Positions 3,632 through 30,475 of a stretch of DNA of 38,261 nucleotides are shown here, piece by piece (within the stretch, counting starts at the first letter, position 1; each line of letters opens with the position of its first letter). The notes beneath the pieces are model-generated. The model did no database searches, was not told where the DNA came from, and worked only from the letters and a program-made list of their open reading frames with translations. The position numbers were made by a program, and so were the translations under genes. Source of the stretch: Candidatus Kaiserbacteria bacterium RIFCSPHIGHO2_12_FULL_53_13. GTDB lineage: Bacteria; Patescibacteriota; Minisyncoccia; Phycocordibacterales; UBA2100. The stretch lies in NCBI GenBank assembly GCA_001781555.1, contig MFLP01000030.1, positions 16,164-54,424 of the forward strand, in the 5' to 3' direction.

Positions 3632-3665
3632 TTGGCAAAAATATGGGCGGGTGCGATAATTGCAA
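3632..3665 (+). promoter_or_regulatory. Sigma70-type promoter of ctp, start codon at the predicted TSS (leaderless)
   Basis: TTGGCA (3632-3637) - 17 nt - GATAAT (3655-3660) - 5 nt - ATG (3666). No SD. Confidence 0.55.
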
Positions 3666-4964
3666 ATGCAGAATTCATGCGGGATACATATGTTTGATGA
3701 AAATGGCAAAAGATTTCTAAGCGCGAAAAACGCTGGCATCATTGCCGTCTCGCTTGCAATAGTCGGTTTCGGAACAGGATTTCTTATAGGTGGGCGTGGA
3801 TTCCTAGCGGACAGCTCCTCTCGGTCCATTGCTTCCGAGAGCCTTGGAGCAGATAAACCACCATCCGGCGTGGATTTTTCTCCGGTTTGGAAAGCATGGC
3901 AGGCCATTGATGAGAAATTCGTCCCTGCCGCCGTTTCTACAAGCACCCCCGCAGCCACAAGTACCGAGGCCACTGATCAGGAGCGGGTCTGGGGAATGAT
4001 ACAGGGCCTTGCAGGCTCTCTGAACGACCCATACACGTTCTTCATGCCTCCTGCCGAAAACAAGGTCTTTTCCGATGACATGAGCGGCAGTTTTGAAGGA
4101 GTCGGCATGGAAATCGCTGTGCGCGAGCAGGTTTTGACAGTTGTCTCTCCTCTAAAAGGAACTCCTTCGGAAAGAGCCGGGATAAAGAGCGGGGACAGAG
4201 TATTGAAAATAGATGAAATAGATACGCGCGGCATGGATATAACGGAAGCCGTCAAACGTATCAGGGGCCTGCGGGGAAGCGTCGTGTCTCTGACGATATC
4301 ACGGGACGGATGGGATGCCCCGAGGGAGATAAAAGTAACTCGCGATGTCATAGATGTGCCTATCTTAACCACAGAAGCCCGCCCTGATGGCGTATTCGTG
4401 ATACAAGTCATGAGCTTCACTGGGAATTCATCCGGACTTTTCCGGAATGCATTGCGTGAGTTTATCGATTCCGGAGATACGAAACTCATACTTGATCTGC
4501 GGGGCAATCCCGGCGGTTATCTCGAATCTGCCGTTGACATGGCCAGCTGGTTTTTACCTTCCGGCAAAGTCGTTGTTACGGAAGATTACGATGGCCACGG
4601 GGAGAATATCGTGCATCGCTCGCGCGGCTATGACGTGTTCAATGAGAACTTGCGAATGGCGATATTGGTAGATCACGGCTCCGCGTCAGCTTCAGAAATT
4701 CTCGCAGACGCTTTGCGATACTATGGCGTAGCCAAGCTTGTTGGCGCGACGACCTTCGGAAAAGGGTCAGTACAAGAACTTGTGGAGATCACCCCGGAGA
4801 CCTCTCTCAAATTGACGATTGCGAGATGGTTAGGGCCCAACGGAGATCAGATACCGAACACGGGCATCATTCCGGACGTGGAAGTGAAAATCAGCGACGA
4901 TGACGCAAAAGCCGGCGAGGACCCTCAAATGGATAAAGCAGTCGAATTGCTCAATGCGCAATGA
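3666..4964 (+). CDS. ctp: Carboxy-terminal processing protease (S41 family, PDZ domain, N-terminal membrane anchor)
   Basis: Carries S41 motifs RGNPGGYL, SASASEILA and TFGKGSVQ, plus a PDZ-like segment (GIKSGDRVLKID). The ORF track begins at TTG 3660. The first ATG at 3666 sits 5 nt after a GATAAT box. Confidence 0.9.
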   Translation: MQNSCGIHMFDENGKRFLSAKNAGIIAVSLAIVGFGTGFLIGGRGFLADSSSRSIASESLGADKPPSGVDFSPVWKAWQAIDEKFVPAAVSTSTPAATSTEATDQERVWGMIQGLAGSLNDPYTFFMPPAENKVFSDDMSGSFEGVGMEIAVREQVLTVVSPLKGTPSERAGIKSGDRVLKIDEIDTRGMDITEAVKRIRGLRGSVVSLTISRDGWDAPREIKVTRDVIDVPILTTEARPDGVFVIQVMSFTGNSSGLFRNALREFIDSGDTKLILDLRGNPGGYLESAVDMASWFLPSGKVVVTEDYDGHGENIVHRSRGYDVFNENLRMAILVDHGSASASEILADALRYYGVAKLVGATTFGKGSVQELVEITPETSLKLTIARWLGPNGDQIPNTGIIPDVEVKISDDDAKAGEDPQMDKAVELLNAQ

Positions 4965-6163: not shown

Positions 6164-6754
6164 ATGTTAATTATTGATGTAGAAGCATCGGGGACGGAAG
6201 CGCACAGGCACTCCATCGTGAGCGTGGGCGCGCTCGATTTTGCGAACCCGAGCAATAGATTTTATGAAGAATGCAGAGTTTGGGATGGTGCGCACATTAT
6301 GGACGAAGCACTTGCGGTGAACGGATTCAGCAGGGAACAGATAACCGATGCTAGAAAGCAGAGCGAGGCGGATCTGACACACGCCTTCCTTCACTGGAGT
6401 GATGGATTGGAAGAACGGACTCTTGCAGGACAGAACGTTTCTTTTGATCGCGATTTCTTGAAATATGCGGCACAGCGCGCCGGGCATACCGACTGGCCAT
6501 TCGCATATCGCACGATCGACACGCATACGCTCTGCTACATGCACATGGTAGAGCGGGGAATCCAGCCGCCGGTGAAGCATCGCCGCTCCGCACTCGACCT
6601 AGATGCAGTATTGCACTATTGCGGTATTCCAGAGGAGCCCAGCCCGCACAACGCGCTTACAGGTGCCTTGTCGCATGCGGAGGTAGTCGCACGCCTTCTC
6701 TATGGCCGAAAGCTTTTGCCAGAATTCATGCAATTTGAGATACCCTGGAAATAA
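6164..6754 (+). CDS. DEDD-type 3'-5' exonuclease (DnaQ/RNase T-like)
   Basis: Exo I motif MLIIDVEASG, Exo II GQNVSFDRDFL and Exo III-like HNALTGALSHAEV. The internal ATG at 6164 is preferred over the ORF-track start 6074, which overlaps the previous gene. TACAAT lies 6 nt upstream. Confidence 0.75.
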   Translation: MLIIDVEASGTEAHRHSIVSVGALDFANPSNRFYEECRVWDGAHIMDEALAVNGFSREQITDARKQSEADLTHAFLHWSDGLEERTLAGQNVSFDRDFLKYAAQRAGHTDWPFAYRTIDTHTLCYMHMVERGIQPPVKHRRSALDLDAVLHYCGIPEEPSPHNALTGALSHAEVVARLLYGRKLLPEFMQFEIPWK

Positions 6755-7009
6755 GGGGCAGGGGAGAGTGCAAGAAGAACAGCATTTGTAGATTTATTGA
6801 TGCCTTCCCCTTTGGTTTGGCAGGGAACTGGAAATAAATTTTATTCTGGAATATTGAGTCGTTATAATACTTCCAACTTCGTTTTAATTGTTCCGACACT
6901 TTATTTAAATCAGCAGTCATCAGAGGAAGAGAGAAGTGTCAAATCGGCTAAACGAGATTGTGGCGTAATAATATTAATACAACGTCGCACAATATATCTT
7001 TTACGCGGG

Positions 7010-7026
7010 TAGCTTATGCGACATAT
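7010..7026. repeat. Left copy of a perfect 17-bp inverted repeat (tagcttatgcgacatat)
   Basis: Exact reverse complement of 7726-7742. Lies 38 nt beyond the stop of the 214-aa gene. Confidence 0.95.
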
Positions 7027-7034
7027 CATATTAT

Positions 7035-7052
7035 TTACTTATATTTAAGTAA
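7035..7052 (-). terminator. AT-rich hairpin downstream of the 214-aa gene (TTACTTA-n4-TAAGTAA)
   Basis: 7-bp stem with a 4-nt loop, 12 nt after the stop codon. There is no clear U-tract, so this is a weak terminator call. Confidence 0.3.
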
Positions 7053-7064
7053 TCAGATAATGGC

Positions 7065-7709
7065 TTAAGAACGTAAGACACGTAAGGGCTTGCGGCTTTT
7101 ATAGAACTCCTCAAACGTCTTCCAGCTCATAAGGGTTTGCTTTTGCCCGAGCCCCCTCTTCTTTTTCTGGACTAGCTCATTTAGCTCGCTCTGATTAATA
7201 TCTTCGTTCATCTGAAGAAATATGATTGGATATGGCAGTAGGTCTGACTGCGAGTATTTAGCCAGTTTAAGGTTCAGGCATCCCCCAATATTTTTGAGCG
7301 AACTGGCATAAAACACGTCTACACAAAATCCATCCTTGCCATCATATACAAAGAAATCAGCACGAGTCCTGTGGTCATCTGTGTAGAAGTATTCTCTGTG
7401 CACAAATTCTTTCCCGAATTGTTTGCACAACAGTTCGTATACATTTTTCTCTAGTATGTGGGCGCGTTCATTTATCGTATGCGCACGTTTTGAGCTATGG
7501 GCGCCTGTTCGCAAATCATGTTCACTTCCTATGTTGAGTTGTTTACGAAGCGCGACAAGTCCGCCAAAACGACGCTCGGCAGTTTTAGCTCTGGGTAAAT
7601 AAGGACACTCATCAAATTCTGTTGCTGTCGGGTACCTATGGTTCTCCTTATAAAAACGATCTAATCCATCTCTTATCCGCTCCATGGGCCACGTGAGACC
7701 TTTTGCCAT
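7065..7709 (-). CDS. Hypothetical protein: N-terminal homing-endonuclease-associated repeat (HEAR/HNH_repeat-like) plus restriction-endonuclease-fold-like core
   Basis: Residues ~8-58 (ERIRDGLDRFYKENHRYPTATEFDECPYLPRAKTAERRFGGLVALRKQL) fit the HEAR consensus (...GrxPtxxEfd...Psxxtixr.FGsW..Al). The core EKNVYELL...RADFFVYDGKDGFCVDVFYASSLK resembles a PD-(D/E)xK / Vsr-like layout. Both matches are from memory of the consensus. Confidence 0.5.
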   Translation of the reverse strand: MAKGLTWPMERIRDGLDRFYKENHRYPTATEFDECPYLPRAKTAERRFGGLVALRKQLNIGSEHDLRTGAHSSKRAHTINERAHILEKNVYELLCKQFGKEFVHREYFYTDDHRTRADFFVYDGKDGFCVDVFYASSLKNIGGCLNLKLAKYSQSDLLPYPIIFLQMNEDINQSELNELVQKKKRGLGQKQTLMSWKTFEEFYKSRKPLRVLRS

Positions 7710-7721
7710 CGCTCAAGTATA
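7710..7721 (-). promoter_or_regulatory. -10 box abutting the 214-aa gene start, 4 nt from the right inverted repeat
   Basis: TATACT (7721->7716) - 6 nt (TGAGCG) - ATG (7709). Confidence 0.45.
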
Positions 7722-7725
7722 CCCT

Positions 7726-7742
7726 ATATGTCGCATAAGCTA
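7726..7742. repeat. Right copy of a perfect 17-bp inverted repeat (atatgtcgcataagcta)
   Basis: Exact reverse complement of 7010-7026. Lies 4 nt upstream of the TATACT box of the 214-aa gene. Confidence 0.95.
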
Positions 7743-7837
7743 TTTATGATTCTGTGGATATTCTCTGCTACTACCGTAAGATACATTTTCCTGGCACAAG
7801 CTTGGCTATAAACCCGTGGATGTCTGGCTTCTCTTTT

Positions 7838-8173
7838 TTAATAAAGAGAATTAAACGGGTCAACTTGAAACTTGATGCGACTGACGTTTTGTTCGCTGCC
7901 AGAGACTGTTTTTCCGGCTCCCAAGGATAGACCAACGACACTTACCTTACCTCCCCCTTCGACGTTCTTTCCTGAAATAACTGTAACCGCCACATCGAAA
8001 CTAATGCTGCCATTTTTATTTTTGTCGTCTCCTCGATTACTGTCCATGTGGTATTGCATCTGTCCATTTGTTCTCTCCGGAGTCTTCTCCTGCTTTGCGA
8101 TTGCGATATTGGCATTTTTTACACCTCTTTGTATTCCTACAAGTGTTTCCTCGATAAATTTATCTAGTTGCAT
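7838..8173 (-). CDS. Trypco2-like small protein (conflict-system-associated alpha+beta domain)
   Basis: N-terminal helix LDKFIEETLVGIQRGV. It is followed by ISFDVAVTV...GGGKVSVVGLSLGAGKTVSGSEQNVSRIKFQVDP. This mirrors the trypco2 pattern (...vElel.vavt....g.kvkfwvl.lga......s.thrikl.l.P), recalled from memory. Confidence 0.5.
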   Translation of the reverse strand: MQLDKFIEETLVGIQRGVKNANIAIAKQEKTPERTNGQMQYHMDSNRGDDKNKNGSISFDVAVTVISGKNVEGGGKVSVVGLSLGAGKTVSGSEQNVSRIKFQVDPFNSLY

Positions 8174-8183
8174 ATAGACACTT

Positions 8184-8564
8184 TTAATTAATATTTTCAG
8201 TAAATTTTGCAGCTATTTTTTTACGAAGCGTCTGTATTTTCGGATCATTACTGATTGACGCTGCTGTATCAAGTCTCTTTAAAAATAGCTCAAGTTCTTC
8301 AGGGGAACCCACTCCATATTTTTCAACCCACTTATCAACTTCATTCACAATTTGGTTGGCAACCTCTTTTGGTTTTAAAGATTCACCATCGTGCCATTGA
8401 GGGGATTTGCGGGTTAGAGCAATATCCCTTTCGAACACGTTTTCTCGCCTTGTTGCAGAATCGCCCGCGCTAGATATAGGTTGTAATTGGGCAGCTTTAA
8501 TGAGGCGGCCAATTTGTCTTTTCACACGTTCTTCCGGTCGAAGTCTTTCTAACCCCTTACCCAT
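8184..8564 (-). CDS. Hypothetical 126-aa predicted all-helical protein, first gene of a two-gene operon with the trypco2-like gene
   Basis: Clean ORF in the AT-rich island, 10 nt upstream of the next ORF. TGCTAACAT (extended -10) lies 6 nt upstream of the ATG. I recognise no family. Confidence 0.55.
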   Translation of the reverse strand: MGKGLERLRPEERVKRQIGRLIKAAQLQPISSAGDSATRRENVFERDIALTRKSPQWHDGESLKPKEVANQIVNEVDKWVEKYGVGSPEELELFLKRLDTAASISNDPKIQTLRKKIAAKFTENIN

Positions 8565-8579
8565 GGAAGCATGTTAGCA
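8565..8579 (-). promoter_or_regulatory. Extended -10 box abutting the 126-aa gene start
   Basis: TGCTAACAT (8579->8571) - 6 nt (GCTTCC) - ATG (8564). Confidence 0.45.
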
Positions 8580-8584
8580 CGGTG

Positions 8585-8597
8585 TATGATTAGCGCT
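8585..8597 (+). promoter_or_regulatory. -10 box abutting the transglutaminase-like gene start
   Basis: TATGAT (8585-8590) - 7 nt - ATG (8598). It lies back-to-back with the divergent -10 box at 8571-8576. Confidence 0.4.
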
Positions 8598-9257
8598 ATG
8601 GCCTACCGCAACAGATTAAAAGCCGTGCTCTCCCCCGCCGAGCGTAAAGTTTTTACTGAACTGAACACCGCGCAAAAGATACAAGATTATTTGGATTCCA
8701 TTCCAATTAATTTTGAGGTCAAGGGAGAGACTTATATGTCGTCGAGACGCGTCATTCGAAATCAGACGGCGCATTGCTTTGAAGGTGCTTTGTTTGCGGC
8801 GGCGGCGCTCGCGTATCACGGAGCGCGCCCTCTGCTCCTTGATCTGAGAACGATAGACGAGGATCAGGACCATGTCGTGGCATTATTCCGGCAGAATGGC
8901 CTTTGGGGCGCTATCAGCAAGACCAATCATCCCATATTGCGCTACCGCGACCCCGTGTACCGAAGCGTGCGCGAACTCGCGATGTCGTATTTCCACGAAT
9001 ACCTCTTAGATGACGGTAGAAAATCTTTGCGGGCATACTCACGGCCATTCTCCCTAACACGCTACCCGGTGAAAACATGGGTGACGGCGGAGAAGGACCT
9101 GCATTTCCTAGTTGAGGCGCTCGACAGCTCCCACCACTTCCCCATCGTTCCGGGAAAAACGATGCGATTGTTGCGCAAAGCATCGCGCGTTGAAACGAAA
9201 GCGATGAACATCGTCGAGTGGCCGGAGCTGAAGAAATCTAAGAGCCGCCCGAACTAG
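8598..9257 (+). CDS. Transglutaminase-like / papain-fold putative cysteine peptidase
   Basis: Cys in QTAHCFEGALFAAAALAYHGARP and His in QDHVVALFRQNGLWGAISKTN follow the C...H...(D/N) spacing of transglutaminase-like cores. Start ATG 8598 is preferred because TATGAT lies 7 nt upstream. The ORF-track start at 8571 would sit 6 nt from the divergent gene. Confidence 0.5.
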   Translation: MAYRNRLKAVLSPAERKVFTELNTAQKIQDYLDSIPINFEVKGETYMSSRRVIRNQTAHCFEGALFAAAALAYHGARPLLLDLRTIDEDQDHVVALFRQNGLWGAISKTNHPILRYRDPVYRSVRELAMSYFHEYLLDDGRKSLRAYSRPFSLTRYPVKTWVTAEKDLHFLVEALDSSHHFPIVPGKTMRLLRKASRVETKAMNIVEWPELKKSKSRPN

Positions 9258-10534
9258 AAATAGTTAGTCGGATTAAGGTACCCTGAGAGTGGCGCTATCG
9301 GCATGATGGCATTCGCGCACGGAGTCTTTTGCTTCGTCGCGTCTCCTAGCCGCATTATCTGCGTTGCAGATGAGACATACACGCCGAAATGGAGATGCGG
9401 ACCCGTCGCATATCCTGTCTGCCCGCTGTAGCCGATAAGCTGGCCGGTCCCCACCGATTGCCCCTTGGAGGCGGAAATCTGCGATAGGTGCGCATAGAGC
9501 GTATCTAGGCCATTGCCATGCTGGATGAGTATCCAGCGACCGTATGAATAGCAGCCGCGCACGGAGCCGGTGTCGCCTGTGCCTATCACGGTACCCGTCA
9601 GAGCCGCTCTGACAGGCGTTCCTATCTGCGCACGTAGGTCAATGCCGTTGTGCCCTTTGCCGTTGTACCCGCCGCTTCGCGCGAACGAGGTATCGCCGAA
9701 TTGTTGCGTGACCGCCACTTTGTCGAGCGGCCAATGTAGAATTCCACGTCCTGCCGGCGTGATCTTTGACGGGTCAACCGTGTACTGGAACTTTGTCTGC
9801 AGATCTTGCAGAGCGCTCTCAAAGCTCGCCTTGGCGGCCTGTTTTTGGGCCAAAATTGCCTGGAAGTTCGATTCCTGTGCTTTTGTCTGTTCCAGAAGCT
9901 CGTTCTGCGCTTTGCGTGTCGCATCCAAGGACCCCTGTTGCGTTACCAATGTTTGCTGCTGTTTCAATAGTTGCGCGCGCTTGGTTTCCGCGGCAGTTTT
10001 AGTATCAGTAAGAGACTGCTTCTCGACTGATAGACGGTCTATATCCTCCCGTATTGATTCCTGGAGACTTGCCATTGAATCCGCATCCTGCCAAGCGTCC
10101 GAGATCTGGTCTGAAGACAAAATTGCGATCGAAAGCGGCTGCTGCTCTCCGCGTTCCAGAAGCCGGAGCGATTCGGCAAGGCCTTCCTTATTGTTTTGGA
10201 TCGAGCTTTGCTTGTTCGCGATGCTGGTTGAAAGCTGCCGTATCTGCAATTGCGTCGTATTTATCTGGCTTTTCGTGACGTTGATGGAAGCGGTCAGCTT
10301 CTTACGCTGAAGATCAAGCTGGGCAACCGTGTTCTGCAATGTGTTTTTTTGTTTGATGGTCGCATCAAGCTGCACTTGATACTGCGCTATTTCCTTTTCA
10401 AGCGCCGCTATCTGGGCAGTATTCGAATCTATTTGCTTTTGAAGCTCGTCGGCCGATTGAGCGACTGCAACTAACGGACTAATTAGTACCGCGAAGGTCA
10501 AAAACGCGGCGTATGTTCTCACATAGGTTTTCAT
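9254..10534 (-). CDS. M23 family metallopeptidase with signal/anchor and long coiled-coil N-domain (EnvC-like)
   Basis: M23 motifs GHNGIDL and GPHLHFGVY. The N-terminal half is Q/L/K-rich coiled coil. The start overlaps the gltX stop (ATGA). Confidence 0.88.
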   Translation of the reverse strand: MKTYVRTYAAFLTFAVLISPLVAVAQSADELQKQIDSNTAQIAALEKEIAQYQVQLDATIKQKNTLQNTVAQLDLQRKKLTASINVTKSQINTTQLQIRQLSTSIANKQSSIQNNKEGLAESLRLLERGEQQPLSIAILSSDQISDAWQDADSMASLQESIREDIDRLSVEKQSLTDTKTAAETKRAQLLKQQQTLVTQQGSLDATRKAQNELLEQTKAQESNFQAILAQKQAAKASFESALQDLQTKFQYTVDPSKITPAGRGILHWPLDKVAVTQQFGDTSFARSGGYNGKGHNGIDLRAQIGTPVRAALTGTVIGTGDTGSVRGCYSYGRWILIQHGNGLDTLYAHLSQISASKGQSVGTGQLIGYSGQTGYATGPHLHFGVYVSSATQIMRLGDATKQKTPCANAIMPIAPLSGYLNPTNYF

Positions 10535-13028: not shown

Positions 13029-13062
13029 CAGCTTATTGTATCTCCATGATGCTCATTTTCAA
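13029..13062 (-). promoter_or_regulatory. Internal promoter for murG, leaderless geometry
   Basis: TTGAAA (13062->13057) - 16 nt - TACAAT (13040->13035) - 6 nt (AAGCTG) - ATG (13028). Confidence 0.55.
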
Positions 13063-15273: not shown

Positions 15274-15285
15274 TTGGACATTGTA
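15274..15285 (-). promoter_or_regulatory. -10 box abutting the mraY start
   Basis: TACAAT (15285->15280) - 6 nt (GTCCAA) - ATG (15273). Confidence 0.45.
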
Positions 15286-25847: not shown

Positions 25848-26927
25848 TTAAAGACCCTCTCTCTTAAGCTTTTCTATCAGATCGCGCGCGGAATGTGAAA
25901 GTTTCTTCGGGAATTCTATATTGATGCGCACAAGAAGGTCGCCTCTCGCTCCGCGACCATGCGGAACTCCGTGTTCGCGAACGCGGATGATCTCACCGTG
26001 AGCAACTCCCGCAGGCACGGTAATCGATATATCTCCGTCAAGAGAGTGTATGCCGTGTTCACCGCCCAAAAGTGCGTCAGTGAGTTTAATCGAAAGCGAG
26101 GTCAGTATGTTATTACCTTCGCGCGTGAAGACTTTGTCGGGTTTTACATGAAGCTTTACATACAAATCCCCTGCTCCGCCGCCAGTCGCGGCTTCTCCTC
26201 GTCCAGGCATCCGTATCATTTCGCCGTCTGAAACACCTGAAGGAACCGCGACGCGTATCTCTTCTTCTTTCTTTGCGACCCCTTGACCATTACAAATCCC
26301 GCATGGATTCTCCGGAATTTGCCCCGTACCATGACAACGCGGGCACGGCCTTGTGGAGGTAAAATTGCCGAAAAAAGTATTGCGTGATTCACGTATCTCA
26401 CCCTTGCCGTTGCACGAGCTGCAAGATGCAAGCTTTGACCCTTTCTTAGCCCCGCTCCCGCCGCAGGATTCGCATACGCTTATTTTCGCAATAAGAACTC
26501 GGCGTTCAGTGCCGAATATCGCCTCGCGGAAAGGCAATTCTATATCGATGGATATATCGCGCCCACGAGGTTTTCCGCCGCTCGCAGGCCTGCCGCCGGC
26601 AAAAAAGTCGCTGAATATATCGCCGAGGTCGAATTCCTGGAAATTGCCCTGAAATCCACCCTGTGAAAAGTTGGAGAAATCAAATCCGCCAAAGCCCCCC
26701 TGCGGTCCGCCTCCTGAACCTGAGAAGGTCTTCCCGTATGCATCGTATTCCGCCCGCTTCTTTTTATCGGAAAGTACCGCGTACGCCTCGCTCGCTTCCT
26801 TGAATTTCTTCTCGTCCCCTCCTTTCTTGTCTGGGTGGTACTTATGCGCAAGTTTCCGGAACGCTTTTTTTATCTCTTCCTCGTTAGCTGTCTTTGGCAC
26901 TCCGAGTATATCGTAGTAATTCTTCAT
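25848..26927 (-). CDS. dnaJ: Chaperone DnaJ
   Basis: J-domain (YYDILGV...HPD), a G/F region and four CxxCxGxG zinc-finger repeats. Start is ATG 26927 ([10 protein letters not shown]). Confidence 0.95.
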
Positions 26928-26942
26928 AGTCGTTCCATTATA
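26928..26942 (-). promoter_or_regulatory. -10 box close to the dnaJ start
   Basis: TATAAT (26942->26937) - 9 nt (GGAACGACT) - ATG (26927). Confidence 0.4.
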
Positions 26943-27007
26943 GTGCAACAATCCAAATTGAAAAGAGAAAGGCCTTGCGGCACTAAGGATCACTCTCCTC
27001 CACGCAA

Positions 27008-28870
27008 TTATGCACCGGGACTTCCCTCACCTGTGTCCGATTTCTTATCGCTTTCCTGGGGCGGCGGCTGTTGTTTGGACATTGCTTCGCCGATCGTGCT
27101 CATAGCTGTCGATAATGCTTCGGACGCGGACTTGATCGCCGCGCTGTCAGTTCCCCCTCGAGCAGTCTTAAGCGCGTCGATTTTTTCCTGCACATTTTTC
27201 TTTATTTCCTCACCTACTTTTTCTCCGTGCTCTTTGAGTGCTTTTTCCGCAGCATAGATCACCTGGTCTGCGGAGTTCTGTGCTTCAACAAGCTCCTTCT
27301 TCTGTTTGTCCGTCTCGGCGTGCACTTCCGCGTCTTGGCGCATTTTCTCAACATCCGCGTCAGTAAGCCCTGAGCGTGCCTCAATTCGTATTGATTGTTC
27401 CTTGCCGGATGTTTTATCCTTCGCTTTCACGCTTAAAATGCCGTTTGCATCGATATCGAACGTGACTTCTATCTGTGGCATGCCTTTGGTAGCAGGCGGT
27501 ATTCCGTCCAGGTTGAAGCGCCCGAGAGATTTATTGTCGGCCGCCATAGGACGTTCTCCCTGCACGACATGTATTTCCACCGACGGCTGATTATCAGATG
27601 CCGTTGAAAATACTTGAGAGCGCGACGTCGGGATAGTCGTATTACGGTCTATGAGTTTCGTCGCAACACCGCCCAAAGTCTCTATTCCCAGAGAAAGCGG
27701 AATGACGTCGAGAAGAAGAACGTCTTTCACATCGCCTTGGAGTATGCCTCCCTGGATCGCAGCTCCCACAGCAACGACCTCGTCAGGGTTCACTCCCATG
27801 TGGGGCTTCTTGCCGAAATAATCTTCCACCGCTTTTTGCATCGCGGGCATGCGTGTCTGCCCGCCGACGAGGATGACTTCGTTTATGTCCGGATTCTTGA
27901 ACGGCGACGCCTCCATCGCGCGCTTGGCGATAGCCATCGCCCTATCCACGAACTCTCTCGCCAAATCCTCCAGCTTCGCGCGTGTCATTTTGACAAGCAA
28001 ATGGCGGGGACCGGATGAGTCAGAGGTGATGAACGGGATGTTCACTTCCGTTTCAAGCGCCGTTGAGAGCTCGATTTTCGCTTTCTCTGCCGCCTCATCA
28101 AGTCGTTGGCGAGCGAGCGGGTCGTTCCTTACATCAATGCCCGATTCCTTCTTGAATTCGTCGGCTATCCAACCCATGACGCACTGATCTATGTCTTTGC
28201 CGCCGAGGTGTGCGTCGCCATCGGTCGAACGCACCTCAATGACATCATCGCCCACCTCAAGGACTGATATGTCGAAAGTCCCCCCGCCGAAATCGAATAC
28301 CACTATCTTCTCATTTTTCTTTTTATTGAAACCGTATGCAAGAGCCGCGGCCGTCGGTTCGTTAATGATGCGCTTCACGTCGAGCCCAGCTATCTTGCCA
28401 GCGTCGCGCGTCGCTTGTCTCTGCGCGTCGTTAAAGTATGCCGGCACCGTTATTACCGCCTCGGTTATCGTCTCGCCCAGTTTCGCTTCCGCATCCTGCT
28501 TTAATTTTTGAAGTATCATCGCGGAAATTTCTTCTGGTCGGTACCATTTATCGGACATTTGCAGTTCTATTCCGCCGTTCGCGGATTTGCGCATCTCAAA
28601 GGGCACCGCTTCGCGGTCTTTCACTACTGCCGGTTCATCAAAAGAGTGTCCGATGAAGCGCTTTATCTGGTATACGGTATTTTTCGGATTTGTAACGGCC
28701 TGGCGCCGGGCAAGCAGGCCGACGAGACGTTCTCCCGTTTTTGAAATGGCGACCACCGAGGGTGTTGTGCGTGCGCCTTCCGCGTTCTCAATTATCTCAG
28801 GCTCGCCGCCGCGTACTATCGCCATCGCGGAATTCGTCGTGCCGAGGTCAATGCCTAGAATTTTTCCCAT
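27008..28870 (-). CDS. dnaK: Chaperone DnaK (Hsp70)
   Basis: [28 protein letters not shown] and a full-length substrate-binding domain. Confidence 0.97.
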
Positions 28871-30463: not shown

Positions 30464-30475
30464 ATTTTTATTATA
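30464..30475 (-). promoter_or_regulatory. -10 box abutting the rplM start and overlapping the rplQ stop codon
   Basis: TATAAT (30475->30470) - 6 nt (AAAAAT) - ATG (30463). Confidence 0.4.

What the first reader, a model, noticed from the sequence alone, without database searches (positions are those of the whole stretch)
7838..8564. Two-gene operon: unknown 126-aa helical protein plus trypco2-like protein, with no protease or NTPase partner
The two ORFs are 10 nt apart and no SD lies between them, suggesting coupled translation. They share one promoter, TGCTAACAT, 6 nt before the first ATG. The second product matches the trypco2 pattern with an N-terminal helix followed by ISFDVAVTV...GGGKVSVVGLSLGAGK...SRIKFQVDP. 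Trypco2 has been described as an accessory or adaptor domain next to trypsin-like peptidases and other effectors in conflict systems. Here the only partners are a novel helical 126-aa protein and the nearby nuclease-like cassette. This could be a minimal, undescribed toxin-antitoxin or abortive-infection-like pair.
Basis: partly seen in the sequence, partly recalled or inferred. Interest (0 to 1): 0.6.

Follow-up and report, generated by a model that had tools for sequence, protein, structure and literature searches.

The report
Protease-less Pepco-like gene with novel partner
A small gene in a tiny-genome (CPR) bacterium is a distant, stand-alone relative of a bacterial anti-phage pore-forming protein, and it travels with an unknown partner gene but without the dedicated protease that normally switches such proteins on.

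Summary
Both ORFs are real, on the minus strand: 126 aa at 8184-8564 and 111 aa at 7838-8173, 10 nt apart.

**111-aa protein.** It gives no direct Pfam Trypco2 hit. A profile of its family finds 1,704 clusters. Of 144 aligned members, 71 match Trypco2, also called Pepco. [quoted passage not shown] The model shows the expected amphipathic helix plus three amphipathic strands. This subfamily differs from canonical Pepco in two ways. It ends about 5 residues after the core, against 22 in a canonical control. It had no trypsin, caspase or STAND neighbour in 0 of 33 loci scanned systematically. Instead it sits among restriction-modification and toxin-antitoxin genes, and three times beside dnaK.

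**126-aa protein.** It is an orphan with three homologue clusters.

**The pair.** It is a low-GC insertion of about 830 nt relative to a same-genus genome. It is younger than its flanks in the one other genome that carries it. The 126-aa family also occurs without the 111-aa gene, and no other locus has it.

**"No protease partner" is wrong.** The divergent neighbour is CPR-C4, a proven cysteine protease, though no linkage is shown.

**Verdict.** A new, protease-less variant of a known effector family. Its being a toxin-antitoxin pair is unproven.

The parts
7838..8173 (-). 111-aa gene: stand-alone, short-tailed member of the Trypco2/Pepco superfamily
   Evidence: ORF. The profile search finds 1,704 clusters at E<=1e-3. 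71 of 144 aligned members match PF19631 at E<=0.01, but the window protein itself does not. AF2 model: pLDDT 78.4, helix 3-29, strands 57-66, 76-79 and 95-104. The helix and strands are amphipathic. GC is 0.42 against 0.51 for the window.
8184..8564 (-). 126-aa gene: lineage-restricted orphan protein, upstream cistron of the pair
   Evidence: ORF. Only 3 homologue clusters, at 97, 64 and 48% identity. No Pfam, NCBIfam, PADLOC or PHROGs family. No PDB or ESM Atlas lead. No longer homologues. GC 0.41. It evolves fast: 65% amino-acid identity to L003, against 91-94% for the 111-aa protein.
8174..8183 (-). 10-nt spacer between the two cistrons, without an SD
   Evidence: Read directly. There is no -10-like hexamer 3-13 nt before the 111-aa start, which is consistent with co-transcription.
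8565..8597 (.). 33-nt divergent control region. It holds TGCTAACAT (8571-8579, minus strand, 6 nt before the 126-aa ATG) and TATGAT (8585-8590, plus strand, 7 nt before the likely CPR-C4 start at 8598).
   Evidence: Read directly. A -10-like hexamer close to the start codon is enriched in this window: 8 of 32 starts against 1.0 +/- 0.97 at random positions. The orthologous G016 genes show TATAAT and TATACT 6 nt before their starts. Function is inferred, not shown.
7744..8597 (.). Low-GC segment of about 830 nt, present here and absent from same-genus genome G016. It holds exactly the two genes.
   Evidence: BLASTN: window 6972-7743 and 8703-10015 match G016, with only about 60 nt between the two divergent starts there. 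GC is 0.41-0.42 against 0.50-0.53 in the flanks.
8598..9257 (+). CPR-C4 family cysteine protease gene (longest ORF from 8571). It is the divergent neighbour and is not shown to be part of the system.
   Evidence: phmmer to PDB 7pjo and 7ob6 'CPR-C4', E 6e-78, query residues 9-222. C69 and H101 are spaced 32 residues apart, like C61 and H93 of CPR-C4 (read and PMC9108980). Found in 22 of 24 same-genus genomes.
7065..7709 (-).
   Evidence: Only a sub-threshold HNH_repeat hit, E 0.022. No PDB or PHROGs hit. Found in 3 of 24 same-genus genomes. GC 0.44. It has its own TATACT 6 nt before the ATG.

Best explanation
**111-aa gene.** It encodes a stand-alone member of the Trypco2/Pepco superfamily. 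The characterised member, SsPepco, is a small protein with an N-terminal amphipathic helix and a beta region. It pre-assembles into 9-10-mer barrels and permeabilises the membrane once a partner protease removes its C-terminal tail. The window protein belongs to a large, unnamed subfamily that has the same helix and beta core. This subfamily differs in three ways:
- it has an extra loop of about 25 residues;
- it ends about 5 residues after the conserved core;
- it has no dedicated trypsin-like, caspase-like or STAND neighbour.

**Proposed function (inferred).** It is a membrane-active beta-barrel effector of a defence or stress type. Its trigger is not an adjacent dedicated protease.

**The pair.** The 111-aa gene and the upstream 126-aa orphan gene form one low-GC, horizontally exchanged two-gene cassette, probably one transcript. 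I take the 126-aa product to be a cassette-specific accessory, either a regulator or a neutraliser. Odds are about 40% for any functional link and about 25% for a true antitoxin.

**Shown:** homology, architecture, the indel, composition, and lack of a conserved partner.
**Inferred:** pore formation, operon status, and the role of the 126-aa protein.
For: **Homology**
- The profile of 7 close homologues hits 1,704 clusters at E<=1e-3 and 104 at E<=1e-10. All listed hits are 67-169 aa.
- 33 of the first 60 hits match PF19631 at E<=0.01, and 2 are above the 24.2-bit cut-off.
- 71 of 144 aligned members match PF19631 at E<=0.01.
- hhalign of the 144-row alignment against one canonical Trypco2 gives E 7.9e-4. 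It aligns strand to strand, and window P106 falls on P76 of the canonical protein. That canonical protein scores 70 bits and lies beside Trypsin_2, a MoxR-type AAA_5 ATPase and an FGE-domain protein.
- In the ESM Atlas, 4 of 30 nearest clusters carry Trypco2 in 15% of their members.

**Architecture**
- AF2 model: pLDDT 78.4, helix 3-29 and three strands.
- Helix 3-20 has the highest helical hydrophobic moment in the protein (0.60). Strands 57-66 and 95-104 alternate hydrophobic and polar residues.
- This matches the description of SsPepco (section 8 of bioRxiv 10.1101/2025.11.14.688446).

**Cassette**
- About 830 nt are present here and absent in G016.
- GC is 0.41-0.42 against 0.50-0.53. GC3 is 0.29-0.39 against 0.54-0.63.
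- Against L003, third-position identity is 0.58 and 0.56 for the pair, against 0.38 and 0.36 for gltX and the M23 peptidase gene.

**Sporadic distribution**
- 0 of 60 relatives have the 111-aa family.
- 4 of 400 other genomes of the phylum have it.

**Context in relatives**
- Of 33 loci in named genomes (+/-2 ORFs), 5 have restriction-modification neighbours. In 2 of these the gene lies between hsdS and hsdR.
- 5 of the 33 have toxin-antitoxin genes as neighbours.
- CPR loci show Shedu SduA_C, DpnII/MboI and Mrr_cat domains.
Against: - The window protein itself fails Pfam's Trypco2 model at E<=1.
- The hhalign probability is only 24.8% against a single-sequence template.
- No solved structure resembles the model: Foldseek has no hit at E<=1e-3 and VIA gives a best Z of 3.5.
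- Pore formation, oligomerisation and toxicity were not tested here. They are known for one distant member only, from a preprint.
- Most of the family has no partner like the 126-aa protein (0 of 40 loci). The partner therefore cannot be generally required.
- The 126-aa family occurs without the 111-aa gene in L001, upstream of LexA-like and DinB genes.
- Three CPR loci place the gene in the grpE-dnaK region. This hints at a stress role rather than a defence role.
- Neighbour ORFs were called with a crude longest-ORF rule.
Confidence: 0.5

Rival explanations
1. **Minimal toxin-antitoxin or abortive-infection pair.** The 111-aa protein is a constitutively competent pore former because it lacks the long inhibitory tail. 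The 126-aa protein binds and neutralises it until a trigger removes it.
For: - The order is small upstream gene then downstream effector, with a 10-nt spacer and no separate -10-like element for the second gene.
- The two genes were gained or lost as one unit. They share composition and synonymous divergence.
- The upstream protein evolves fast while the effector is highly constrained: 65% against 91-94% amino-acid identity.
- The tail after the core is about 5 residues, against 22 in a canonical Trypco2.
- In one archaeal locus (L055) a MazE-like gene abuts the family gene.
Against: - Pairing is seen in only 2 lineages. Close homologues in L004 and L006 (65-66% identity) have other neighbours.
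- 0 of 40 loci have a 126-aa homologue.
- L001 has the 126-aa family without the 111-aa gene.
- The 126-aa protein has no DNA-binding or antitoxin family match.
- Hundreds of family members evidently manage without such a partner.
Confidence: 0.25
2. **Protease-activated Pepco after all, with the neighbouring CPR-C4 cysteine protease as activator.** CPR-C4 is a remote structural relative of the vasohibins. It would trim the short conserved C-terminus (...PFNS[LI][YF]) and so arm the barrel.
For: - CPR-C4 is the immediate divergent neighbour. It is a proven protease with no known substrate (PMC9108980: abstract and sections 4, 10, 16, 18).
- Pepco is reported with serine or cysteine proteases. 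Kaur et al. mention rare transglutaminase-like thiol peptidases in such systems.
- The C-terminus is conserved. Of 144 family members, 80 end exactly 7 residues after the last strand. In 58 of those 80 the penultimate residue is aliphatic.
- SsPepco is active only when it ends exactly at a conserved Ile.
- That vasohibins are carboxypeptidases removing a C-terminal tyrosine is recalled from memory, not taken from a call.
Against: - CPR-C4 is in 22 of 24 same-genus genomes, while the 111-aa family is in 0 of the 36 same-genus genomes searched.
- L003 keeps the pair but only a 29-codon remnant of CPR-C4 at the locus.
- No CPR-C4 lies within the fetched flanks of 7 further loci with the family.
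- The position of the aliphatic residue does not align with the Ile in the canonical tail.
- The adjacency is explained by a variable hot spot next to a core gene.
Confidence: 0.08
3. **Not a defence effector.** The family would be a small membrane or envelope stress protein tied to the Hsp70 system. In that case the 126-aa protein is an unrelated resident gene that happens to lie upstream.
For: - Three independent CPR loci put the family gene next to the chaperone genes. In L005 it is 23 nt upstream of dnaK-dnaJ. In L014 it is 24 nt downstream of dnaK. In L043 it is upstream of an HTH gene, grpE and dnaK.
- The protein is very strongly conserved: 91-94% identity where GltX is 64%.
- The 126-aa family keeps the same chromosomal position without the 111-aa gene in L001.
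- Evans et al. note DnaK-like fusions to another protease-effector module and raise stress sensing.
Against: - In this window dnaK is 19 kb away.
- The distribution is sporadic and the gene is low-GC.
- Neighbours in many loci are restriction-modification, toxin-antitoxin or Shedu genes.
- The pair is younger than its flanks.
Confidence: 0.12

Closest known systems
Pepco, also named Trypco2 (Pfam PF19631): peptidase/trypsin-co-occurring small effector (Kaur et al. 2020, PMC7159879; Evans et al. 2025, bioRxiv 10.1101/2025.11.14.688446)
   Same: - Size of about 100-117 aa.
- An N-terminal amphipathic helix followed by amphipathic beta strands.
- The same core motifs, [FL]xVAVT ... GG ... h-K/R-I-x-h-x-h-x-P, align with a canonical member.
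- Remote but consistent sequence homology.
- Found in defence-type neighbourhoods.
   Different: - Below the Pfam threshold.
- An extra polar loop of about 25 residues between the helix and the first strand.
- About 5 residues after the core proline, against 22 in the canonical control and a 20-residue cleaved tail in SsPepco.
- No trypsin-like, caspase-like or STAND/MoxR-vWA gene within +/-2 ORFs in 0 of 33 loci, nor in the window. None was seen among the neighbours examined, unevenly, in 7 further loci; the eighth, L006, holds only the first 37 residues at its contig end, so its downstream side is unseen.
- Here it is coupled to a novel 126-aa protein.
Type II toxin-antitoxin modules
   Same: Two small co-directional genes with a very short spacer. 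The pair is carried on horizontally moving, low-GC DNA. The upstream partner evolves faster.
   Different: The upstream protein matches no antitoxin or DNA-binding family. Pairing of the two families is not conserved. Neither toxicity nor neutralisation has been tested.
CPR-C4 / vasohibin-like cysteine proteases (PDB 7ob6, 7pjo; PMC9108980). This is the neighbour, not the finding itself.
   Same: The 228-aa neighbour matches at E 6e-78 over residues 9-222, with the Cys and His spaced as in CPR-C4.
   Different: It is a nearly universal gene of the genus (22 of 24 genomes). Its presence does not track the pair. It is therefore probably only the landmark next to a variable hot spot.

Membership tests
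Trypco2 / Pepco (PF19631) | Match to the Pfam model at or above its gathering score of 24.2 bits | tested here: not met
   No hit at E<=1 for the window protein. The six-frame family search of the whole genome found 0 hits at E<=10.
Trypco2 / Pepco (PF19631) | Homology demonstrable through intermediate sequences or profiles | tested here: met
   The family profile retrieves proteins of which 33 of 60 and 71 of 144 match PF19631 at E<=0.01. Two of the 60 are above the cut-off. hhalign against a canonical 70-bit member gives E 7.9e-4 but a probability of only 24.8%.
Trypco2 / Pepco (PF19631) | N-terminal amphipathic helix plus an amphipathic beta region | tested here: met
   AF2 model with pLDDT 78.4, helix 3-29, strands 57-66, 76-79 and 95-104. 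Hydrophobic moments.
Trypco2 / Pepco (PF19631) | Neighbouring trypsin-like (or caspase-like) peptidase gene, usually fused to a sensor (STAND, MoxR-vWA, FGE) | tested here: not met
   None in the window. None within +/-2 ORFs in the 33 systematically scanned loci. None among the neighbours examined, unevenly, in 7 further loci; the eighth, L006, is cut at the contig end. The positive control locus L067 shows Trypco2, Trypsin_2, AAA_5 and FGE-sulfatase. A different protease, CPR-C4, is adjacent here, but its presence does not track the gene.
Trypco2 / Pepco (PF19631) | Long charged or proline-rich C-terminal tail removed by cleavage after a conserved Ile | tested here: not met
   The window protein ends 5 residues after the core proline and 7 after the last strand. 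The median tail is 7 residues in 144 members, and 27 of 144 have tails of 15 or more. The canonical control has 22 residues after the proline. Whether the conserved penultimate aliphatic residue (58 of 80) corresponds to the cleavage-site Ile could not be settled.
Trypco2 / Pepco (PF19631) | SDS-resistant 9-10-mer beta-barrel and membrane permeabilisation | not testable with these tools
   This needs biochemistry or a multimer model of 9-10 chains.
Type II toxin-antitoxin pair | Conserved co-occurrence of the two gene families | tested here: not met
   The pair occurs in the window and L003 only. L001 has the 126-aa family alone. 0 of 40 other loci have a 126-aa homologue. No recurrent upstream or downstream partner was found by all-against-all BLASTP.
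Type II toxin-antitoxin pair | Upstream protein belongs to an antitoxin or DNA-binding family | tested here: not met
   No family at threshold in Pfam, NCBIfam, PADLOC or PHROGs. The PDB profile search found nothing better than E 0.45.
Type II toxin-antitoxin pair | Toxicity of one product and neutralisation by the other | not testable with these tools
   This needs expression tests.
CPR-C4 cysteine protease (neighbour gene) | Sequence similarity to the solved CPR-C4 and the conserved Cys and His | tested here: met
   E 6e-78 to 7pjo and 7ob6 over residues 9-222. C69 and H101 are spaced 32 residues apart, like C61 and H93. The residue-by-residue alignment was not printed.

The most novel reading that the evidence does not exclude
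The 111-aa protein represents a large, unrecognised clade of at least 1,700 sequence clusters, found across bacteria and in at least one DPANN archaeon. These would be "pre-trimmed" Pepco-like beta-barrel pore proteins that have dispensed with a dedicated protease. They end one residue after a conserved aliphatic position, so they would be armed or restrained by something else. In CPR bacteria that could be the DnaK system. In this cassette it could be a new, fast-evolving 126-aa partner. If so, this is a new two-gene abortive-infection or toxin-antitoxin type in organisms whose defence repertoire is poorly known.
Probability: 0.2. Interest if true: 0.65.

Novelty: new variant of a known kind. 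Interest (0 to 1): 0.45.

Why it matters
Pepco/Trypco2 has only just been given a mechanism: a pre-assembled beta-barrel armed by a partner protease. All published contexts I saw describe it as protease-linked.

This subfamily is large, stand-alone and short-tailed. It sits in restriction-modification and toxin-antitoxin islands and repeatedly beside dnaK in CPR bacteria. Two questions follow that can be tested directly:
- How is a pore-former controlled without its protease?
- Is chaperone or stress sensing involved?

The finding also places a possible cell-suicide effector in ultra-small CPR genomes. It gives CPR-C4, a proven protease with no known substrate, one concrete though unlikely candidate substrate to try.

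If the protein turns out to be inert, the finding reduces to an ordinary accessory gene pair in a variable hot spot.

Tried and rejected
- **Direct family scans** of both proteins against Pfam, NCBIfam, PADLOC and PHROGs gave nothing at threshold. The best hits were chance-level: HEC-04 at E 0.023, DUF7342 at E 0.006 and HNH_repeat at E 0.022.
- **First AF2 model** from 7 sequences was useless, with pLDDT 39. It was replaced by the 144-row model.
- **Structure searches** of that model found no credible match. Foldseek against the PDB had no hit at E<=1e-3. VIA-align against 48,161 chains gave a best Z of 3.5.
- **Complex prediction** on the 111-aa and 126-aa proteins at 1:1 gave "no answer", score 0.00. 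The controls were not run and the partner's own fold was uncertain. This counts neither for nor against binding.
- **126-aa protein.** No longer or fused homologues. No ESM Atlas lead. No PDB profile hit better than E 0.45.
- **Phage origin.** tblastn of the 111-aa protein against 50,697 phage records found no match.
- **tRNA or integration-site idea.** There is no tRNA in the window. Rfam found nothing in 6500-9000 beyond a chance snoRNA hit at E 0.81.
- **Consensus promoter and terminator scan** of 6700-9400 gave counts equal to shuffled sequence.
- **The search for related loci** found no relative with the close family in genome contigs. It failed on the 144-row alignment. It succeeded with a 20-row subset.
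- **Cluster look-up** of 10 relatives returned no names.
- **The search of earlier findings** returned nothing.
- **Equating the conserved penultimate aliphatic residue with the SsPepco cleavage-site Ile** was considered and left open. I had no SsPepco sequence, and bioRxiv supplements are closed. The one canonical control aligns differently.
Full report
**1. Observation**

The window is contig C30:16164-54424 of a 682-kb genome in 38 contigs, 88.5% complete. Its close relatives are Parcubacteria-type CPR bacteria.

On the minus strand lie a 126-aa ORF (8184-8564) and a 111-aa ORF (7838-8173). They are separated by 10 nt, AAGTGTCTAT on the coding strand, with no SD. TGCTAACAT ends 6 nt before the first ATG.

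Both are real coding genes. Against the homologous pair in metagenome locus L003, identity at codon positions 1/2/3 is:
- 0.94/0.98/0.58 for the 111-aa gene;
- 0.80/0.86/0.56 for the 126-aa gene.

The missing SD carries no weight, because about two thirds of 32 gene starts in the window lack even a 4-mer SD-like motif.

The promoter guess is plausible in local context only.
- A -10-like hexamer (at least 5 of 6 matches) lies 3-13 nt before 8 of 32 start codons. Random positions gave 1.0 +/- 0.97 (maximum 4) in 200 draws. Four of the eight lie exactly 6 nt away.
- The orthologous flanking genes in G016 show the same layout.
- The proposed TAACAT matches at only 4 of 6 positions, and the generic scan finds nothing there.
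- The 111-aa gene has no such element of its own. This fits co-transcription.

**2. The 111-aa protein**

Direct scans fail.
- There is no Pfam family at E<=1, Trypco2 included.
- Nothing was found in NCBIfam, PADLOC or PHROGs.
- A six-frame search of the genome with PF19631 found nothing.

Word-based search finds 7 close homologues at 60-91% identity. A profile of them against 1.84 billion representatives finds 1,704 proteins at E<=1e-3 and 104 at E<=1e-10. The 150 listed are all 67-169 aa.

Homology to Trypco2 holds through intermediates.
- Of the first 60 hits, 33 match Trypco2 at E<=0.01 and 2 exceed the 24.2-bit cut-off.
- Of 144 aligned sequences, 71 match. The window protein does not.
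- A canonical control was fetched from a Planctomycetota genome, the only hit in 251 genomes at E<=1e-5. It scores 70 bits and is followed by Trypsin_2, a MoxR-type AAA_5 ATPase and an FGE-domain protein.
- hhalign of my alignment against this control gives E 7.9e-4 and probability 24.8%. It aligns strand to strand and puts window P106 on P76.

With the deep alignment, AlphaFold2 gives pLDDT 78.4 with helix 3-29 and strands 57-66, 76-79 and 95-104. The helix and two strands are clearly amphipathic. No solved structure resembles the model.

**3. What is known of the family**

Kaur et al. 2020 (PMC7159879; passages read) named Trypco1 and Trypco2 as neighbours of trypsin-like peptidases in vWA-MoxR systems.

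Evans et al. 2025 (bioRxiv 10.1101/2025.11.14.688446; abstract, section 8 and passages read) rename them Pepco. They report the following:
- SsPepco (117 aa) forms SDS-resistant 9-10-mer beta-barrels.
- The trypsin-like domain of an Avs4 homologue cuts after Ile97 and removes a 2-kDa tail rich in charged residues and proline.
- Only a protein ending exactly at Ile97 is toxic.
- The N-terminal amphipathic helix is required.

Trypco2 is thus the effector, not an adaptor.

**4. How this subfamily differs**

- The tail after the last strand has a median of 7 residues in 144 members. Exactly 7 occurs in 80, and 15 or more in 27. The window protein has 5 residues after the core proline, against 22 in the control.
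- Among the 80 seven-residue tails, the penultimate residue is aliphatic in 58 (Ile in 43). The last residue is G, S or A in 46. In the close family the end is PFN[ST][LI][YF]. I could not decide whether this aliphatic position corresponds to the cleavage-site Ile.
- No dedicated protease or NTPase is nearby. In 33 loci from named genomes, 124 ORFs within +/-2 of the gene showed no Trypsin, caspase or STAND family at E<=1e-4. The loci span CPR lineages, Bacteroidota, Planctomycetota, Pseudomonadota, Chlamydiota, Gemmatimonadota and one Woesearchaeota archaeon. The only peptidases were S51 in 1 locus and YgjP-like in 2 loci.
- Other neighbours in those 33 loci were as follows.
  - Five loci have restriction-modification genes. 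In two of these the gene lies between hsdS and hsdR.
  - Five loci have toxin-antitoxin genes.
  - Several have mobile-element genes.
- Eight further loci were examined:

| Locus | Neighbours of the 111-aa-family gene |
|---|---|
| L003 | 126-aa homologue upstream (the only other pair); tyrosine recombinase downstream on the other strand |
| L004 | 58-aa zinc-ribbon ORF 30 nt upstream; nothing else scanned |
| L005 | dnaK directly downstream |
| L006 | Shedu SduA_C domain upstream |
| L012 | HNH and DpnII/MboI domains |
| L013 | Peptidase_C39_2-like gene two genes upstream in a tight same-strand row |
| L014 | dnaK directly upstream; an HTH-Panacea antitoxin-like gene downstream |
| L015 | Mrr_cat domain; a 495-aa protein with a HEVTH (HExxH-type) motif, read by eye |

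- L043 adds rplM, rpsI, the family gene, an HTH gene, grpE and dnaK. Three of 41 loci therefore touch the Hsp70 operon.
- No two of the 41 loci are duplicates at 80% identity or more, except the window and L003.
- All-against-all BLASTP of the adjacent same-strand ORFs shows no recurrent partner. The exceptions are the type I restriction-modification genes, DnaK, and the window/L003 pair.

**5. The 126-aa protein**

- It has three homologue clusters only, at 97, 64 and 48% identity.
- No longer forms were found. No family, PDB or Atlas lead was found.
- It was not found in 36 same-genus genomes. Among the 24 further relatives of the order there is one chance-level hit.
- The C-terminal two thirds are well conserved and the N-terminus is basic.
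- In L001 (GW2011_GWA2_51_10) it sits at the same chromosomal place, next to the CPR-C4 gene. There it is followed by a LexA-like S24 peptidase gene and dinB, not by a 111-aa homologue.

**6. The pair as a unit**

- Same-genus genome G016 has the orthologues of the two flanking genes (the 214-aa gene and CPR-C4) head to head, about 60 nt apart. The window has 888 nt between them, holding exactly the two genes. Other same-genus genomes carry different or no cargo between the RNase T-like gene and CPR-C4. This is therefore a variable hot spot.
- The pair is low in GC: 0.41-0.42 against 0.50-0.53 in the flanks. GC3 is 0.29-0.39 against 0.54-0.63.
- Comparison of the window with L003:

| Gene | Amino-acid identity | Third-position identity |
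|---|---|---|
| gltX | 64% | 0.38 |
| M23 peptidase gene | 62% | 0.36 |
| 126-aa gene | 65% | 0.56 |
| 111-aa gene | 91-94% | 0.58 |

- The expected third-position identity from composition alone is 0.25-0.29.
- The pair is therefore younger than the host split and was exchanged as a unit. One member is strongly constrained and the other is fast-evolving.
- Against this, close homologues of the 111-aa protein in L004 and L006 have other neighbours. L005 is cut 75 nt upstream and so is uninformative.
- The 111-aa family was found in 0 of 60 relatives and in 4 of 400 other genomes of the phylum.

**7. The protease next door**

- The divergent 228-aa ORF matches the solved CPR-C4 (7pjo, 7ob6) at E 6e-78.
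- CPR-C4 is a cysteine protease shown active on labelled casein. Its substrate is unknown and it has remote vasohibin-like structure (PMC9108980: abstract and sections 4, 10, 16, 18).
- "No protease partner" is therefore not literally true.
- However, the gene is in 22 of 24 same-genus genomes, while the 111-aa family is in 0 of the 36 same-genus genomes searched. L003 keeps the pair beside only a 29-codon remnant of it. The other loci tested lack it.
- Its likely start is 8598, not 8571. The evidence is the PDB match from residue 9 and the alignment with G016.

**8. Conclusion**

The 111-aa gene is a stand-alone, short-tailed, protease-less variant of the Pepco/Trypco2 effector family. It is carried with an orphan 126-aa gene on a small, horizontally exchanged, low-GC cassette in a variable hot spot.

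Pore formation and any role of the 126-aa protein are inferred. The single complex-prediction job gave no answer. I rate the toxin-antitoxin reading at about 0.25, CPR-C4 activation at about 0.08, and a chaperone-linked stress role at about 0.12.

Noticed in passing
window-wide gene starts, e.g. 7710-7721, 13029-13040, 15274-15285, 30464-30475: Strong -10-like hexamers (TATAAT, TACAAT, TATACT) lie 3-13 nt before 8 of 32 start codons, and exactly 6 nt before 4 of them. Random positions gave 1.0 +/- 0.97. SD motifs are mostly absent. This suggests widespread leaderless or very short-leader mRNAs in this CPR genome.
   Followed up: partly
window 6981-7025: A short intergenic element is far better conserved than its surroundings. 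It is 97.7% identical over 44 nt in same-genus genome G004. It is 96% identical over 25 nt in G001 and 89% over 36 nt in G011, where the flanks are about 65-70% identical. It is single-copy in the own genome. It overlaps a terminator-like hairpin on the minus strand. It has no Rfam match. Its function is unknown. It may mark one edge of the variable hot spot.
   Followed up: partly
window 8598-9257, and own genome C3:912-1553: The divergent neighbour is a CPR-C4 family cysteine protease (PDB 7pjo and 7ob6, E 6e-78). This genome has a second copy at 67% identity on contig C3. Each of the 22 same-genus genomes with the gene shows one match.
   Followed up: partly
L005:76-2351; L014:4828-7149; L043:5001-8489: In three CPR loci a homologue of the 111-aa protein lies directly beside dnaK or in front of grpE-dnaK. 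In the window itself, dnaK-dnaJ are 19 kb away at 25848-28870.
   Followed up: partly
L049:3806-8472 and L061:3736-8470: In two Bacteroidota genomes the family gene is inserted between hsdS and hsdR of a type I restriction-modification operon.
   Followed up: no
L013:5721-7131: A tight same-strand row: a Peptidase_C39_2-like gene (251 aa), a 122-aa ORF of no known family, and an 83-aa family member that lacks the last strand. This may be a decayed protease-linked version.
   Followed up: no
L003:5466-5552: The only other genome with the pair keeps just a 29-codon N-terminal remnant of the CPR-C4 gene next to it. A tyrosine recombinase gene lies just downstream on the other strand.
   Followed up: no
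L001:6001-8349: In GW2011_GWA2_51_10 the 126-aa homologue heads a same-strand row with a LexA-like S24 peptidase gene and a dinB-type polymerase gene. This hints at a link between the 126-aa family and DNA damage.
   Followed up: no
window 3660-4964: An S41 C-terminal processing peptidase with PDZ domains lies 2.9 kb from the pair. It is mentioned only because Pepco-type proteins are armed by C-terminal trimming. No link is shown.
   Followed up: no
window 7065-7709: The 214-aa "nuclease-like" neighbour has only a sub-threshold HNH-associated-repeat hit, E 0.022. It is itself accessory: 3 of 24 same-genus genomes have it. It is low in GC at 0.44.
   Followed up: partly
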